Assembly (NCBI RefSeq): GCF_963676685.1
Contig: NC_092345.1
Span: 52,514,001 to 52,578,000 of the forward strand
DNA length: 64,000 nt
Origin: Mytilus edulis
Taxonomy: Eukaryota
Direction of reading: 5' to 3'
Below are positions 9,001 to 33,000 of the stretch, piece after piece; the stretch's first letter is position 1; every line of letters begins with the position of its first letter. Position numbers: made by a program.

Positions 9001-12000
9001 TGATATTTTATTGACTGTATATCGCTAGTTTACTGTAGAATCATTTAAGTTCAAACACGCCTAAACCTAAAAAGGTGTACTCGACTTTCTCTTTTCTATT
9101 AGATTATTGACAATTTTGGGGATTTAAAAAAAAAACTGTAACGGGGCAGAAATGCTAATGTATGCTTTAAAAAGGCAAATTTATGCACAAAAAAGATCCA
9201 CGTGAATTTGCATCAACCACAATCGACTGTTTTGTAAAACTTTGTCTATAAATTTGAATTAAATAAATATTTCGAAGCTCAATTCAATAATTTGAGTAAA
9301 AACACACATATAAGATGCATAAAATCCTAAATAAGGCACACTCATTCAACTTTTAAAGCCCATTGAAACAGATGGTAACACTTAAAATTTACCAACTTCG
9401 CCTATTTACCTTCTCTGACATAGAGTTCAGTGGTTGTCGTTTGTTGATGTGTTACATATTTGATTCACTCATAGGGTGTTTGCATCGGAAGTAAAACATT
9501 TATTCTAAAAAACAGTTGTTAGCATGATACGGGTTATGTTCTTCTCATATATTTTATGATGGTAGGATGCTAAACATCAAACGGGTGGAATTGCGCTTGA
9601 TTTTCATATGATGAAGACATAATCTTTCAATCAGTTTTCTTTTGTTATCTTTTCTGACATCAGACTGGAACTTCTTTTAAACTAAGTTTTACTGTGCGTT
9701 ATGTTGTGTTACTAAATATTCCACATTGGCTAGAGGTATAAGGGGAGTGCTGATCGAGATCTCACAAATTATGTTTAACCACACCGCATGTTGGCGCTTG
9801 TCCGAAGTCAGGAGCCTCTGACCTCTTCTTCAACTAGTCAGGAATAGATAGAGAATACTACTAGAATCATTTTCATAATAGCGTGAACAACCGCAATACT
9901 AAGTCGGTAATTATACATGTACTGAATCAGTTACCTTGAACTTGTTTGTCATCGGCTATCGATAATATTAATTGTACGGTCACTCAGTCTGTCAGGGGCC
10001 TTCTAATGGCGATTTAAATAGGAGAAAAGAGTAAAGTACATGCAGGTGCACGAAAAGAAAAAAAAGAAAATTCAAGTATTAAAGATTTAAATCAACACAC
10101 TAGGTTTATTCCTCTGCTAGTAATTCGTATTGATTGATTCAGACATTTAGAACCTTGGACGCCACACAGTTAGCATGTCTTTAACACGCACAATATGACA
10201 AATAGGTGTTACAGACGAACTAATCTGACCCAGTCAATTATTGATAACCTGAGCACGCCCAGAAATGGTCTTGTCCACGCTGTAATGAAAATGAAATCTG
10301 TCTGGTACCAGAAGAAGAGGCACCAATAACTTCAGATATTTTAGATCAAGAAATGTACCTAATTTAATTCTTATAATGAAAGAATATGTTTTCTTATATT
10401 TTCAAATATTATAATTATATTATAACTTTGAATACACAAGATCATAGTGTAGCTGACGAGGTTATGAACGAATCTGTTAATTACAAGTAGTTATTTCATT
10501 TATTAAAACGATTTCACATTTGGCTACATAATATAGGATTGTTTCCTATTGTAAAAATGATAATAACAAAAACCATAACATGTAAGTACATTTTACATAA
10601 AAATTTTGATTTTAAAAATTTTCTCGGAAGTTCTTATGACAAATGCTGATAAACGCTGCATCTTTCTACTATTAAGATTCCAATTAATTAAACATTGATT
10701 TGGAGTATAGCATATTTCCAAGTGAATTATAGTACGGGTCATTTCCAAGTGAATTATAGAACTGAGTATTTCCAAAGGAATTATAGTAAGGGTCATAAGC
10801 GTCAGGATGGACAACATTTCTATCAAAATAATGCTTGATGACAGGCGACTTTTGTGGTGCTATTCCAGCTGTCATTTGTGGTGCTATACCAGCGGCCATT
10901 TGTCGTGCTATACCAGCTGCCATTTGTTGTGCTTCACTAGCTGTCATTTGTGGTGCTATTCCAGCTGTCATTTGGGGTGATATTCCAGCTGTCATTTGTG
11001 GTGCTATACCAACTCCCATTTGTGGTGCTATACCAACTCCCATTTGTGGTGCTATTCCAGCTGTCATTTGTGGTGCTATACCAACTCCCATTTGTGGTGC
11101 TATACCAACTCCCATTTGTGGTGCTATTCCAGCTGTCATGTGTGGTGCTATTCCAGCTGTCATTTGTCGTGCTATTCCAGCTGTCATTTGGGGTGCTATA
11201 CGAGCGTCCACTTTGGAGTTATTAGCCCGGATCATGTTTCCTGCGATCATGTGTCCTGTGCCTGCATTGCTCCCGCTGAATTGTTGCGGTGCAATATTTG
11301 CCATTTGTGTTCCTTGATTCATATTATTTGTTGCCATATACTGTTGTGCCATATCATACATGTTTTGTAAACTATACAGTGGATGACTGGGAAGAAGAAT
11401 ACTTTTCCCCGTGAAACAATCCCGCGTTTCATCGGCTTTTAAAACCATGATGTCTTCGCAGCCATCACGGATAGTTTTGCAATGCTTTGGTGGTGTCGGA
11501 CCTACACCTGCTAACGCACCAACTCTGAAAGAAATTACAGCATAACTTTCTTTATGTTAAAAATAAAAATAAAAAATAACTGTTACATTTTATCCCAAAA
11601 CAAAAAAAAAAACACTCATGATATTTAAGAACAGTAAATCAGATTTATTCCCTATAGATTCTTACAAGTTATAACATAAACGGTACCAATTTTTCTGCAC
11701 CAGATATCGTTTCGATAAACAATGTCTTTTCGGTGGTGCTCAAGGCCAAAATATTTAAAAATCCAAAGCTTAGTAAAAAGATGAAGAGCTATAAATGAAT
11801 ACGTAAACTTGTCGCTCCTTTAAAAAACTTATTCTAAAAGGTTACCTATTCAACACCGTAATAAGATCATTGAATATTGTTTTTATTGGAATAAATATTG
11901 ATTTTGTTATCAGTAGATTAAAAGCTAACTAAATTTTACTAGTATATTATATATATAGATATTCATGGATCTACAATCTGTCGATACCTGTAATTTGGCA

Positions 12001-30000: not shown

Positions 30001-33000
30001 GCAAATCCCCCCTTTTTTGCTCCCTTATAAAAAGCAAATAATTAGTCTACGTGTGTCATTTTGAGATAAGAAATGTCAATTCAAAAGCAATACAACTGTT
30101 TACGAAAAATACTTACCACTTAATGATTTTATATTGTATATGTGATTTCGGAATGGCACTTGGATGGACATTGAAAGCACTATTTTTTATGTAAATTTTA
30201 ATGTCGTCATTATACTGGTGTTATTACATGTAATTGCCATGCCTTTGACCCTCTTATGGGTGTAATTCGTGCTTTAATAAAGAACTATTTGCCCCGACCA
30301 CTGGCACTGGATGACTTGGGTATAAAATGTCCAGATAAAAGTAAAAAGTAATTAAACTTGCCCACAACAAGATAGTTGTCCGCTGTTTCTACATTTACAG
30401 TCCATACAATCTGCTGTTCTAAAACTGGATCCATCCAATATATCAAGTCCTTTGTATGAACATACCGGTATCAATCGTCCAGTCACTGGAAAAATAATAG
30501 TAACTCTTATTGAAATATGAAACAAAAATCTGAATAAACAATGCAGTTCTAAAGGAAATTTATCTTGTACTTTTTAAACAATAATTTTAAACATTCGTTG
30601 ATAGTTGCGGTATTTTTAAGAAGAGTTTAAAAAGCAGAAAAAAAATCTAAATTGAACTCTACCTGTTTTATCAACTCGACCAGAACTCTGATGGCAGAAA
30701 CCATTGACCAGTGGTAAAATCACGACCAGGAATATGAACGACTGCATGTTTACACTATTTTCCTATGTATGAAAGCTACACACAATATGACAGTTTATCA
30801 TATATCTCGGATAGAGTGTAATATTTATAGCTTTGTCGTGTTCTTTATGAAGATCATCATTTGTATGTTACTGAAATTGATTTGAAATAAACATAATTAA
30901 TCTTAAGTGTTCATAACAACAACATGCTGTTGGGTATACAAAATGTTTATTTTGATGATGACACAGCGAAGAAATGACGTTGCCTCTGGTCAGATAAACG
31001 CCTTAGTTGGAAGATATAACTACTGAACAAAAATATGACGAATGTTTTTGTCCAATAATTTAATAACACTATTTCACATATGCATTTGTCGCAATATACA
31101 AGAGAGGACAAAGGACATGAATAGATTCGTCAATTTCAACAAAGAAAAGTGATGAAAAATGCTTGTTTTCCATTTTCTCAAAAGTATATATAATTTCTTC
31201 TAGGCCTACACAAAAATGTTTTAAAAATTCTAAATAATTATATTATCTGGTATTCATGATGAGTTTAATATCATTCTCTTAAAAACATGAATAAATGTTT
31301 GCAACTTGGTAATCACACTTTGAATTACAAAATTGAAGAACTATCCAATGGTACAAGTTTTCAAGGTAAAACTACTTCAACTTAAATAAACTCGGAGTAT
31401 CCTTAACATTAATGAAGACAAAATTTGGACTCCTTACTCTATACCCACATCATATCTAATAAAGGTCCCATGTCTTAAGATATCAGTAAACCGATTTTAG
31501 CAATCATGGAATATTCAATCCCTCTTAATTTCCATTGTACAGTAAAGAAGGTATGGAACAATCATATTTCTTGCTATTGACAAAAACTCACGAAACAACA
31601 TATTGTTAGAAATGTTTGAAAAATTGAATATTCTATCAAACATTATGCCTACAGAAAAATGTATAACTGAAAAAAATGTGAATGAATTCAGTATCTTAAC
31701 AGTCTGAGGATTTTTGAAAATGCAAGAACTATAAAAAAAAAAGTTAAAATTAAAATTGATAAAATAAACCAACGCAAAGTTTGCTGCAAGGGCTATTAGA
31801 AGAAGGAAAAAACATGAAAATAATTTGGTTACAAAAGCAAAAATGATACAAATGTTGCATCAATGGTAATGTCAACATAAATTTAATGTATAACATGTAA
31901 TTTGATATTTTTTTAACAGGAATTACATTGCTCATGTAGCTATTACAAAATACAATGATTACCTATTATATATAATAGATGATTTGATATATAATTTCTC
32001 GTTTTTTGGTAAGTTCAACCAATCATGAATTGATTTTTTTTGCTCTAAATCCAAAGGCAAATGTGTAATCCATATTCAGGACGAGAACAAATGAACAATA
32101 GATTATATATATATCATGAAGGGTTTCTTCAAAGTGGTAGAGCTTAATAGGACAGCCATTTAGACTGACAATCAAAAATAATGTTGAAACGGGTAGATAT
32201 TTTACCTTCCATAACGCAACCTACAAAAATCTCATAGGGTCTTGGCAATGTTCCTTATCGTGCAGAGATAGGAACACTCTCCTTTCGCGTGATATCGGAT
32301 TTGTGGTCCCGATCCCGACCATGCGTGGCTAAATATGTTGCATCCGACACAGCTTAACAGTAACCCTCTTCAGCATGCTGCCATTGCATGTCTTATAAAA
32401 CTTCATATCATCTAAATAAAAAGAACCAGCTTTTCAATTAAAAGAACACAGCAATTACAACGGGTTTTTTTTTAGTATTTACAATTATCTAGATGCAATT
32501 CCATATATCCAATTTAATGGGTAAATCCTCAGTGTAAAATTATCCGTACCTAGTAGATGGAAGATTGAGTTATTTCCCTTAAAACGTATAATTGCAATGA
32601 AAGTTAGGTGTAGCTATCAATACTCAATATAAAAAGAGCCCCCTCCGACTCCCCTACAACCCCAAATCAAAAATATGGAGCTTCATACATGTATATTGTC
32701 AGTAGTAAGGCATAGAATTTTCATAAGCCTCACCTTTAACTTTGGTTGGTGCCCCCTCCCCTCCAAAATAAATAAATAAAATAGAATGGAATGGAATGGA
32801 ATGGAATGGTATATAGACAATATACTTACTTTAAATTGAGAAATCTTACCAAAAAAATATTTTTGATAATTGTGGTATGTCCAATATATGGAATGCACAG
32901 TTTTCTGATAAATGGGTGTCAAAATGTATTGAGCAAAAATTCAAAGATCAGTTTCAACAAGAATGCTTTGCATTTGTTGCAGAATCACCTAAAACTTTAT

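What the first reader, a model, noticed from the sequence alone, without database searches (positions are those of the whole stretch)
10684..30747. Tandem pair of secreted beta-microseminoprotein-like genes, each fused to a different low-complexity tail
The ORF track does not show these genes because the domain is split over three exons. Seen: both genes have an 85-nt exon 1, a 124-nt exon 2, the same intron phases, a signal peptide and 10 Cys in PSP94 spacing, and both domains end in DETRDC.TGK.I. After that they diverge completely. One has about 240 aa of Met/Gln/Ala/Gly octapeptide repeats plus Tyr/Asn nonapeptides; the other has about 75 aa rich in Pro/Met/Asn/Phe with KK and RK sites. Established: vertebrate beta-MSP is a small stand-alone seminal protein that binds CRISP proteins, and a squid homologue is an egg-surface contact pheromone. 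Inference: this is a lineage-specific modular family in which a conserved recognition domain is anchored in a secreted matrix (shell, byssus, mucus or gamete coat) by fast-evolving tails.
Basis: partly seen in the sequence, partly recalled or inferred. Interest (0 to 1): 0.72.

Follow-up and report, generated by a model that had tools for sequence, protein, structure and literature searches.

The report
Two tailed beta-microseminoprotein-like genes in tandem
Two neighbouring three-exon genes encode secreted proteins of the beta-microseminoprotein (PSP94/MSMB) kind, each carrying a long, unrelated low-complexity tail that the known stand-alone family members lack; the domain family is already known in molluscs, and what the tails do is untested.

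Summary
On the minus strand there are two head-to-tail genes about 12.7 kb apart. Gene A has exons at 16718-16634, 13045-12922 and 11524-10684. Gene B has exons at 30747-30663, 30485-30362 and 29813-29465. Both have an 85-nt exon 1, a 124-nt exon 2, intron phases 1 and 2, a signal-peptide-like start and 10 Cys after it. Both carry the shared DETRDC.TGK.I ending, followed by 237-aa and 74-aa Cys-free tails with no significant mutual similarity.

Searched exon by exon, each exon 2 (40 aa) finds almost only beta-microseminoprotein-family chains in the PDB. The best hit is snake small serum protein 2, E=0.0023 with a two-sequence profile. The top three ESM Atlas clusters are PSP94. The exon 3 subdomain finds nothing by sequence and did not fold. 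Pfam gave no PSP94 hit on fragments. The joined protein was not searched or folded.

MSMB-like genes in bivalves, including Mytilus, were reported in 2011. My literature searches found no paper describing a tail fusion. Matrix anchoring remains an inference, because no transcript, proteome or eukaryote genome data were available. I call this a new variant of a known kind, of moderate interest.

The parts
16634..16718 (-). Gene A exon 1 (85 nt). It holds the ATG, a 16-residue signal-peptide-like stretch, the first Cys at predicted mature position 2, and a GT donor. The following intron is phase 1.
   Evidence: It is the only ATG in 13046-19300 (minus strand) that meets three conditions: an open 28-codon frame, at least 11 hydrophobic residues in positions 3-20, and GT at +85. 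tblastn against gene B exon 1 gives E=0.003. The sequence was read.
12922..13045 (-). Gene A exon 2 (124 nt). It encodes most of the N-terminal subdomain, with 6 Cys including C-E-T-C-S-C ... C-C and two N-x-S/T sequons. The following intron is phase 2.
   Evidence: A PDB phmmer search gives beta-microseminoprotein as the top 4 of 5 hits, E 0.12-0.77. The top three ESM Atlas clusters are PF05825 PSP94, scores 0.85/0.80/0.80.
11398..11524 (-). Gene A exon 3, domain part. It encodes the C-terminal subdomain with 3 Cys at exon-peptide positions 15, 22 and 36, and ends in DETRDC-F-TGK-S-I.
   Evidence: It is 64% identical to gene B's counterpart. Sequence search of the PDB gave no hit.
10687..11397 (-). 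Gene A tail (237 aa, no Cys, pI about 9.2). It has a Met/Gln/Asn-rich linker, then 15 octapeptides AGIAPQMT (10846-11205), then three Tyr/Asn nonapeptides (10714-10796). The stop is at 10684-10686.
   Evidence: The frame is open for 159 codons outside the array (P=3.4e-5). Both repeat periods, 24 and 27, are multiples of 3.
10499..10504 (-). First AATAAA downstream of gene A's stop, 182 nt after it. It is a candidate polyadenylation signal.
   Evidence: This is a pattern match only.
30663..30747 (-). Gene B exon 1 (85 nt). It holds the ATG, a signal-peptide-like stretch, a Cys at predicted mature position 2, and a GT donor. The following intron is phase 1.
30824..30829 (-). TATAAA 82 nt upstream of gene B's ATG, a candidate TATA box. 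No equivalent was found within 200 nt upstream of gene A's ATG.
   Evidence: This is a pattern match only.
30362..30485 (-). Gene B exon 2 (124 nt). It has 6 Cys including C-M-D-C-K-C ... C-C. The donor is GC (GG|GCAAGT). The following intron is phase 2.
   Evidence: A PDB phmmer search gave only 2 hits at E<=10, both from the beta-MSP family: 6imf_B at E=0.27 and 6rwc_A at E=0.66.
29690..29813 (-). Gene B exon 3, domain part. It has 3 Cys at exon-peptide positions 14, 21 and 35, and ends in DETRDC-K-TGK-K-I.
29468..29689 (-). Gene B tail (74 aa, no Cys, rich in Asn/Pro/Leu/Phe/Met, with RK in LRKG). The KK of TGKK lies directly before the tail. The stop is at 29465-29467, and an AATAAA overlaps it at 29461-29466.
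   Evidence: P(open) for the 80 codons after the last Cys is 5.6e-3. The AF2 single-sequence model of the whole exon 3 peptide had pLDDT 32.4, so it is unusable.

Best explanation
These are two old tandem paralogues of the beta-microseminoprotein (MSMB/PSP94) family.

What each gene encodes:
- A signal peptide directs secretion.
- It is followed by a 95-96-residue, 10-Cys domain, the size of a whole vertebrate beta-MSP.
- The domain is split over three coding exons in the way reported for vertebrates: signal peptide, then N-terminal Greek-key subdomain, then C-terminal subdomain.
- The last exon reads straight on into a Cys-free, basic, low-complexity extension. In gene A this is 237 aa built from 15 Met/Gln/Ala/Gly octapeptides and three Tyr/Asn nonapeptides. 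In gene B it is 74 aa rich in Asn/Pro/Phe/Met.

Shown here:
- The gene anatomy.
- The paralogy. Protein similarity is confined to the exons, with non-synonymous change well below saturated synonymous change.
- The family affinity of exon 2.

Inferred:
- The disulfide-locked domain is the binding or signalling module, as in the family's known members. These include a squid egg-capsule contact pheromone, a heparin-binding chicken MSMB3 in eggshell membranes, and a marsupial egg-coat protein.
- The tail is a disordered, self-associating or cross-linkable tether. It would keep the domain in a secreted layer rather than letting it diffuse.

I put about 0.85 on the identity and anatomy. I put about 0.35 on the tether function of the tails.
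For: Paralogy:
- tblastn between the genes gives e1 E=0.003, e2 about 3e-6 (46% identity) and e3 domain about 4e-11 (64% identity).
- blastn at word size 7 finds no exon or intron match between the loci. It finds only 3 short repeat hits.
- pN is 0.29-0.44, against pS of 0.74-0.97.

Family affinity:
- Exon 2 of A against the PDB gives 5 hits at E<=10. The top 4 are beta-microseminoprotein. The C-x2-C-x-C-x6-C-C block aligns to Cys 37, 40, 42, 49 and 50 of 3ix0_A.
- Exon 2 of B gives 2 hits, both from the family.
- A two-row profile gives 6 hits. The top 5 are family members, and the best is 6imf_B at E=0.0023.
- The top 3 ESM Atlas clusters are PF05825.
- In the Foldseek run on the exon 2 model, 3ix0_A has the best TM-score (0.75) and rmsd (0.8 A over 32 columns, 38% identity) in the list.

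Cys spacing:
- After the CC pair the gaps are 16, 7, 14 in A and 15, 7, 14 in B.
- In human MSMB the corresponding gaps are 14, 9, 14, from the Cys numbers.

Exon roles: in vertebrates the open reading frame spans exons 2-4, exon 4 encodes the C-terminal domain, and a figure legend marks the signal-peptide, N- and C-domain regions (PMC3268785 passages).

Tails as coding sequence:
- Open-frame statistics.
- Repeat periods of 24 and 27 nt. By contrast, a 38-nt satellite elsewhere in the window is open in several frames.

Family members found in egg coats or shell membranes: passages.
Against: - Pfam found no PSP94 match for any of the 6 exon peptides, even at E<=10.
- The exon 3 subdomain found nothing in the PDB, either alone or as a profile.
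- The exon 3 peptide of B did not fold (pLDDT 32.4).
- The exon 2 model is confident in only 1 of 5 AF2 models (82.7 against 43-47).
- Foldseek has 0 hits at E<=0.001. It ranks VWC, VWF and mucin chains above PSP94, with NEL at E=0.068 against 3ix0_A at 0.86, rank 21.
- All PDB E-values are weak in absolute terms, the best being 0.0023.
- No transcript evidence exists for any junction, for the GC donor of gene B, or for translation of the tails.
- The octapeptide array is open in 2 of 3 frames on its own strand and in all 3 on the other strand. Its own openness therefore proves nothing.
- The ESM Atlas gave no usable hit for A's exon 3.
- Nothing here speaks to tissue, matrix or binding partner.
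Confidence: 0.7

Rival explanations
1. The tails are pro-regions, not tethers. The precursor would be cleaved just after the domain, releasing a free stand-alone beta-MSP-like protein as in squid and vertebrates. The tail would then be discarded or would yield other products.
For: In gene B the domain ends T-G-K-K. Gly followed by a dibasic pair is the classical convertase and amidation signal (established knowledge, recalled). B has a second basic pair, RK, in the tail. A snail MSP-like transcript has been treated as a neuropeptide-type precursor (PMC10036341 passages).
Against: Gene A has T-G-K-S at the same place and no dibasic pair anywhere in its 243 residues after the last Cys. The putative site is therefore not conserved between the paralogues. 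A 15-copy in-frame repeat is an unusual thing to maintain in a discarded pro-region.
Confidence: 0.15
2. The gene models are partly wrong. One possibility is that gene B is a decaying copy whose exon 2 donor mutated from GT to GC. Another is that the tails are not translated as read here, because of an unseen intron, or because a minisatellite sits in the 3' UTR after an unrecognised stop or splice.
For: Gene B has a GC donor. No transcript data were available. The 24-nt array is open in most frames. No TATA-like motif lies upstream of gene A.
Against: The GC donor has the full AAGT following consensus typical of working GC-AG introns (recalled knowledge). All three B exons are open, and B's exon 3 domain is the best conserved part (64% identity). 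A's frame stays open for 159 codons outside the array (P=3.4e-5). B's frame stays open for 80 codons after the last Cys (P=5.6e-3). AATAAA overlaps B's stop.
Confidence: 0.1
3. The domain is not a beta-MSP. It would instead be a single von Willebrand C-type (SVWC/chordin-like) cysteine knot-like module with a similar C-x2-C-x-C ... C-C core.
For: The Foldseek hits with the lowest E-values for the exon 2 model are VWC domains, VWF D' and mucin chains: NEL 9oz8_C at 0.068, CCN3 VWC 5nb8_A at 0.078, and collagen IIA VWC 5nir at 0.37, with TMq 0.55-0.73.
Against: None of the 13 PDB sequence hits at E<=10 is a VWC protein. Eleven of the 13 are beta-MSP family members. The CC pair is not followed by a Cys at +3, so the C-C-x2-C end of the VWC consensus (recalled) is absent. 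PSP94 gives the best TM-score, rmsd and identity. The first Cys sits at predicted mature position 2, and the domain is 95-96 aa, like the 91-97-aa beta-MSP chains.
Confidence: 0.05

Closest known systems
Vertebrate beta-microseminoprotein (MSMB/PSP94; Pfam PF05825; structures 3IX0, 2IZ3, 1XHH, 2IZ4, chicken MSMB3 6RWC)
   Same: - Both have a signal peptide and 10 Cys.
- The C-x2-C-x-C-x6/7-C-C core aligns residue for residue.
- The domain length of 95-96 aa matches the 91-97-aa chains.
- The coding region is split into signal, N-subdomain and C-subdomain exons.
- Tandem paralogues are common in the family, for example in birds and marsupials.
   Different: - Vertebrate proteins end a few residues after the last Cys (recalled). 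Here 74 and 237 further residues follow in the same exon.
- The C-terminal subdomain has no detectable sequence similarity to solved members.
- Gene A carries two N-glycosylation sequons in the domain. MSMBs are described as non-glycosylated (PMC9363672 passage).
Snake small serum protein 2 (SSP-2; PDB 6IMF chain B)
   Same: It is the best sequence hit of the exon 2 profile (E=0.0023) and of gene B's exon 2 alone (E=0.27). It is a secreted beta-MSP-family binder.
   Different: The solved chain is 109 aa, with no long tail. Its Foldseek match to the exon 2 model is poor (rank 45, E=3.2). That SSP-2's partner in the entry is a CRISP-type venom protein is recalled, not taken from a call.
Molluscan MSMB-like genes (bivalves including Mytilus spp., gastropods, cephalopods; squid egg-capsule beta-MSP-like pheromone)
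   Same: A protostome beta-MSP family was already reported from ESTs and genomes (PMC3268785 passages). A Mytilus galloprovincialis EST is labelled MSMB (PMC3552849 passage). A clam hemocyte transcript is labelled beta-microseminoprotein (PMC4234419 passage).
   Different: None of the passages I saw mentions a long low-complexity C-terminal extension. Frankenberg et al. aligned protostome sequences only up to the last conserved Cys, so whatever followed is not described in the text I saw. I could not compare sequences, because no such collection was open and supplements are closed.
Marsupial uterinesecreted microprotein (USM) of the egg coats
   Same: It is an MSMB relative deposited in an extracellular coat, with a remodelled C-terminus (PMC3268785 passages).
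   Different: USM is truncated, with 8 Cys and a six-residue C-terminal domain. The genes here are extended.

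Membership tests
Beta-microseminoprotein (MSMB/PSP94, PF05825) | Ten conserved Cys with the family's spacing | tested here: met
   Each gene has 10 Cys after the predicted signal, split 1 + 6 + 3 over the exons.

Gaps from the third Cys on are 3, 2, 7, 1, 16, 7, 14 in A and 3, 2, 8, 1, 15, 7, 14 in B (each split codon counted as one residue). 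Human MSMB has 3, 2, 7, 1, 14, 9, 14. These come from Cys 37, 40, 42, 49 and 50 and Cys 64, 73 and 87.

The positions of the first two human Cys (2 and 18) are recalled. Here they fall at predicted mature positions 2 and 21.
Beta-microseminoprotein (MSMB/PSP94, PF05825) | Sequence similarity to known members | tested here: met
   This was tested exon by exon only.
- Exon 2 of A: top 4 of 5 PDB hits are family members (E 0.12-0.77).
- Exon 2 of B: 2 of 2 hits are family members.
- The profile of both: top 5 of 6 hits, best E=0.0023.
- ESM Atlas: the top 3 clusters are PSP94 (a lead only).

The support is weak in absolute E-value and is limited to about 20 residues around the Cys core.
Beta-microseminoprotein (MSMB/PSP94, PF05825) | Pfam PF05825 match above the gathering score | tested here: inconclusive
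   None of the 6 exon peptides (28-279 aa) matched PF05825 at E<=10. The fragments hold at most 40-44 domain residues each. The joined domain was not searched, because that step was left out.
Beta-microseminoprotein (MSMB/PSP94, PF05825) | Two-subdomain all-beta fold (N-terminal Greek key, C-terminal sheet) | tested here: inconclusive
   - The exon 2 fragment model has five strands and pLDDT 82.7, but in only 1 of 5 models.
- It superposes on 3ix0_A at TMq 0.75 and 0.8 A, but with E=0.86, and VWC-type hits rank above it.
- The C-terminal part did not fold (pLDDT 32.4).
Beta-microseminoprotein (MSMB/PSP94, PF05825) | Three coding exons: signal, N-subdomain, C-subdomain | tested here: met
   The exon contents were read. 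[quoted passage not shown] Vertebrate intron phases were not available to compare.
Beta-microseminoprotein (MSMB/PSP94, PF05825) | Small stand-alone secreted protein of about 90-100 aa | tested here: not met
   The predicted mature proteins are 333 aa (A) and 169 aa (B), because of the tails. The domain alone is 95-96 aa.
Beta-microseminoprotein (MSMB/PSP94, PF05825) | Binding of CAP/CRISP-family partners | not testable with these tools
   No CAP/CRISP gene was seen among the window's larger ORFs. No binding test was run.
Single-domain von Willebrand C (SVWC/chordin-like) | C-x2-C-x-C in mid-domain plus C-C-x2-C near the end (consensus recalled) | tested here: not met
   The first motif is present. 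The CC pair, however, is followed by a Gly-rich linker with no Cys for 15-16 residues.
Single-domain von Willebrand C (SVWC/chordin-like) | Sequence or fold match to VWC domains | tested here: inconclusive
   None of the 13 PDB sequence hits is a VWC protein. The top Foldseek hits are VWC/VWF D' at E 0.068-0.5, none at E<=0.001, on a 40-residue fragment model.

The most novel reading that the evidence does not exclude
A binding domain known elsewhere as a free seminal, egg-coat or pheromone protein has here been turned into the head of structural proteins. The same 10-Cys beta-MSP module would be grafted, within one last exon, onto interchangeable material-forming tails. One tail is a Pro/Gly/Met-containing octapeptide array with Tyr-rich cross-linkable nonapeptides. 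The other is a short Asn/Pro/Phe-rich segment. A recognition or contact-pheromone signal would thus be fixed covalently in a secreted material such as a gamete coat, egg jelly, periostracum, byssus or mucus. Tail swapping would be the way the family diversifies.
Probability: 0.25. Interest if true: 0.6.

Novelty: new variant of a known kind. Interest (0 to 1): 0.38.

Why it matters
Beta-microseminoproteins evolve fast, are tied to reproduction, and have no agreed function. Known members are free 10-kDa proteins. Copies fused to long repetitive tails would show that the domain can serve as the recognition head of a matrix or coat protein. That would give a concrete way to ask what it binds, by pull-downs from the material that holds it.

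If the tails are instead cleaved off or not expressed, the locus is an ordinary tandem pair of a family already reported in molluscs in 2011.

Tried and rejected
- **Pfam, exon by exon.** There was no PSP94 hit. The only hits were chance-level: Arm-DNA-bind_3 at E=0.034 inside the octapeptide array, and DUF5613 at E=0.14.
- **PDB sequence search with the exon 3 subdomain.** As a profile and alone it gave 0 hits.
- **AF2 of gene B's exon 3 peptide.** pLDDT was 32.4, so the model was unusable and was not sent to Foldseek.
- **ESM Atlas with gene A's exon 3 peptide.** There was no usable hit.
- **Search for a third copy.** tblastn and the Cys-motif scan found none in the window.
- **Segmental duplication.** A self-blast shows only interspersed repeats shared between the loci, in differing order and orientation. 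blastn between the loci finds no exon or intron match. A recent segmental duplication is therefore rejected.
- **Tail homology.** There is a marginal co-linear match of the last 32 residues (E=0.057; 99 of 2000 shuffles). I do not accept this as homology. The N-terminal tail parts show nothing (866 of 2000 shuffles).
- **Bacterial promoter/terminator scan.** It is irrelevant to a eukaryote gene and was disregarded.
- **Rfam and tRNA scans of the window.** Both gave 0 matches, so they offered no help in placing the organism.
- **Literature search.** It was badly framed: it asked for any 2 of 6 terms, returned 9,850 papers, and none of the 30 listed held 'microseminoprotein'.
- **Peptide-motif search.** There were 52 papers, but all 20 listed matched only a transporter name containing the letters of one motif. 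The other four motifs scored 0 in every listed paper.
- **Complex prediction.** I did not use it, because I make no specific binding claim.

Full report
**What is there**

The region has about 33% G+C. Both genes lie on the minus strand. I read the sequence. A script scan for an ATG with a hydrophobic start and a GT at +85 found exactly one candidate upstream of gene A's exon 2. Together these give two three-exon models.

| | Exon 1 | Exon 2 | Exon 3 (incl. stop) | Intron 1 | Intron 2 | Precursor |
|---|---|---|---|---|---|---|
| Gene A | 16718-16634 | 13045-12922 | 11524-10684 | 3588 nt | 1397 nt | 349 aa |
| Gene B | 30747-30663 | 30485-30362 | 29813-29465 | 177 nt | 548 nt | 185 aa |

- Exon 1 is 85 nt and exon 2 is 124 nt in both genes. 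The intron phases are 1 and 2 in both.
- All four acceptors are pyrimidine-rich AG sites.
- Three donors are GT. Gene B's exon 2 donor is GC (GG|GCAAGT). The nearest GT, 4 nt further on, would put exon 3 in a frame that stops after 19 codons. The GC donor is therefore the only one that keeps the conserved C-terminal part.
- The genes are head to tail, 12.7 kb apart.
- Between them lies a non-LTR retrotransposon with both ORFs open. ORF2 is 1208 aa at 19292-22918, with endonuclease and reverse transcriptase domains. A 486-aa ORF1-like frame is at 23041-24501.

**Is it more than chance?**

- Each exon peptide finds the other gene as its only hit below E=0.01 in the window. E is 0.003 for exon 1, about 3e-6 for exon 2 and about 4e-11 for the exon 3 domain.
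- The core motif C-x2-C-x-C-x(5-9)-C-C occurs twice in all six frames, both times in an exon 2. It occurs in none of 50 shuffles.
- At the DNA level the two loci share nothing but three short repeat fragments.
- Synonymous sites are saturated (pS 0.74-0.97), while non-synonymous differences are 0.29-0.44.
- This is an old duplication with protein-level constraint confined to the proposed exons. That is the best available support for the exons without transcripts.

**The domain**

The first 16 residues of both proteins look like a signal peptide, with a hydrophobic core, V at -3 and G at -1. I judged this by eye, as no predictor was available. After it come 10 Cys, split 1, 6 and 3 over the exons.

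Sequence evidence from exon 2 (40 aa):
- Exon 2 of A gives 5 PDB hits at E<=10. The top 4 are human or porcine beta-microseminoprotein (E 0.12-0.77). The Cys core aligns to Cys 37, 40, 42, 49 and 50 of 3ix0_A.
- Exon 2 of B gives 2 hits, snake small serum protein 2 and chicken MSMB3.
- A profile of the two gives 6 hits. The top 5 are family members, and the best is E=0.0023.
- The ESM Atlas feature search ranks three PSP94 clusters first, at 0.85, 0.80 and 0.80. The tool itself calls this a lead only.

Cys spacing and length:
- The gaps after the CC pair are 16/15, 7 and 14. In human MSMB they are 14, 9 and 14, from Cys 50, 64, 73 and 87 as numbered.
- The domain runs 95-96 residues to the shared T-G-K-x-I. 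The solved beta-MSP chains are 91-97 residues.
- The exon division fits what Frankenberg et al. report for vertebrates. There the ORF spans exons 2-4, exon 4 encodes the C-terminal domain, and a legend marks signal, N- and C-domain regions (PMC3268785 passages).

Evidence against, or missing:
- Pfam gave no PSP94 hit on any fragment.
- The exon 3 subdomain has no detectable relative in the PDB.
- The exon 3 peptide of B did not fold (pLDDT 32.4).
- The exon 2 model reached pLDDT 82.7 in only one of five AF2 models.
- Foldseek on that model gave no hit at E<=0.001.

In the Foldseek list, VWC domains and VWF D' and mucin chains come first by E-value (0.068-0.5). Human PSP94 has the best TM-score (0.75), rmsd (0.8 A) and identity (38%), but sits at rank 21 with E=0.86.

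The VWC reading is a real rival for this 40-residue core. Three things argue against it:
- There is no VWC sequence hit (0 of 13 across).
- No Cys follows three residues after the CC pair.
- The overall length and Cys count fit beta-MSP.

**The tails**

Both last exons read on past T-G-K-x-I.

Gene A adds 237 residues:
- First comes a Met/Gln/Asn-rich stretch.
- Then come 15 octapeptides in perfect register, consensus AGIAPQMT. TRF gives period 24, 14.8 copies, 87% matches and no indels. There is a higher-order alternation of ..MT-AG.. and ..MG-VG.. units.
- Then come three nonapeptides of the D-P-Y-Y-N-S-L-G-N kind (period 27).
- After the last Cys there is no further Cys. Composition is A 14%, G 11%, Q 9%, M 9%, with pI about 9.2.

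Gene B adds 74 residues:
- They are rich in Asn, Pro, Leu, Phe and Met, with RK within the tail.
- KK lies directly after the domain's T-G.

Is the tail sequence coding?
- The array itself is open in most frames, so its openness means nothing.
- The flanking 159 codons of A's exon 3 are also open (P=3.4e-5 at the window's stop frequency). So are B's 80 codons after the last Cys (P=5.6e-3).
- The two tail repeat periods are multiples of three. The 38-nt satellite at 60.8-62.2 kb is not.

The tails do not resemble each other significantly. The best local match joins their last 32 residues at E=0.057 for the single comparison, and 99 of 2000 shuffles reach its score. A common ancestral C-terminus is neither shown nor excluded.

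**How it most likely works**

Shown:
- Two secreted-type precursors.
- A conserved 10-Cys beta-MSP-like head.
- A divergent low-complexity tail in the same exon.

Inferred:
- The head is a rigid, disulfide-locked binding or signalling module.
- Family members act in extracellular reproductive or protective layers. One is a squid contact pheromone in the egg capsule's outer tunic (passages of PMC4500399 and PMC10036341; the original paper, Cummins 2011, was not read).
- A second is heparin-binding antibacterial MSMB3 in chicken eggshell membranes (PMC9363672 passages).
- A third is marsupial egg-coat USM (PMC3268785).
- A fourth is a testis-biased starfish transcript (PMC9759900 passages).
- The tails look like the repetitive low-complexity domains of secreted structural proteins. 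They could hold the head in such a layer by self-association or Tyr cross-linking.

I give this tether reading about 0.35. The main alternative is that the tail is cut off. Gene B's T-G-K-K is a textbook cleavage and amidation signal (recalled knowledge), but gene A has T-G-K-S and no dibasic pair at all.

**Comparison with what is known, and novelty**

- MSMB-like genes in bivalves, gastropods and cephalopods, with Mytilus named, were reported in 2011.
- A Mytilus EST and a clam transcript carry the name.
- An extended PSP94-like gene family is reported for a sea cucumber genome (PMC13228809 passage).
- The family, its presence in molluscs and its expansion in some invertebrates are therefore known.
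- What I did not find in print is a beta-MSP head fused to a long repetitive tail. I ran seven searches. The five well-framed term searches returned 4, 6, 11, 4 and 6 papers. None of the passages I read mentions such a fusion.
- That is absence in an open-access library only. Supplements were closed, and no sequence database of eukaryotes was open. Annotated mollusc genomes may well already hold such models.
- I rate it a new variant of a known kind, with moderate interest.

**What stayed unchecked**

- The organism.
- All transcript and proteome evidence.
- Family size and tail diversity in other species.
- The whole-domain HMM and fold tests.
- Any binding partner.

Noticed in passing
window 19292-24501, minus strand: A non-LTR retrotransposon lies between the two genes, with both frames open. 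ORF2 is 1208 aa with endonuclease (PF03372, E=1.3e-11) and reverse transcriptase (PF00078, E=5.1e-32) domains. Upstream of it is a 486-aa coiled-coil-looking ORF1-like frame with no Pfam hit. It looks intact, so it may be young.
   Followed up: partly
window 60792-62169: This is a 38-nt minisatellite. It has 23.8 copies at 90% match, then a diverged 38/73/111-nt continuation. It is G-rich on the plus strand (GC 0.425, GC skew 0.315). Because 38 is not a multiple of 3, the same 'peptide' appears in several long open frames, so these ORFs are artefacts. An EF-hand-like match (PF13202, E=1.2e-5) sits just upstream at about 60680-60745.
   Followed up: partly
window 56275-56901, minus strand: A 208-aa open frame matches the DNA/RNA non-specific endonuclease family (PF01223, E=5.7e-25). 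It covers the first half of the profile, so it is probably one exon of an EndoG-like nuclease gene.
   Followed up: no
window 29-838, minus strand: A 269-aa open frame with a sulfotransferase domain (PF00685, E=4e-8) lies at the left edge of the window. It is probably the last exon of a carbohydrate sulfotransferase-like gene.
   Followed up: no
window 49215-50276, plus strand: A 353-aa open frame rich in Ser/Thr/Asn/Pro has no Pfam hit. It lies in a stretch with strong AT skew (0.184). It may be a large low-complexity exon of an unidentified gene.
   Followed up: no
window 12064-12645 vs 25868-26445; 15123-16248 vs 26838-27874; 9460-9824 vs 15573-16008 and 27204-27639: Interspersed repeat copies at 76-95% identity sit in gene A's introns, in the intergenic region upstream of gene A and downstream of gene B, and at 9.5 kb. 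Their order and orientation differ, so they are transposon copies and not a segmental duplication. One family carries an open frame of 80-160 aa with no convincing Pfam hit (DUF3974 at E=0.0061, below the cut-off).
   Followed up: partly
window 12924-13043, minus strand (gene A exon 2): Gene A's domain has two N-x-S/T sequons (N-I-T and N-G-S), and gene B's has none. Vertebrate MSMBs are described as non-glycosylated.
   Followed up: no
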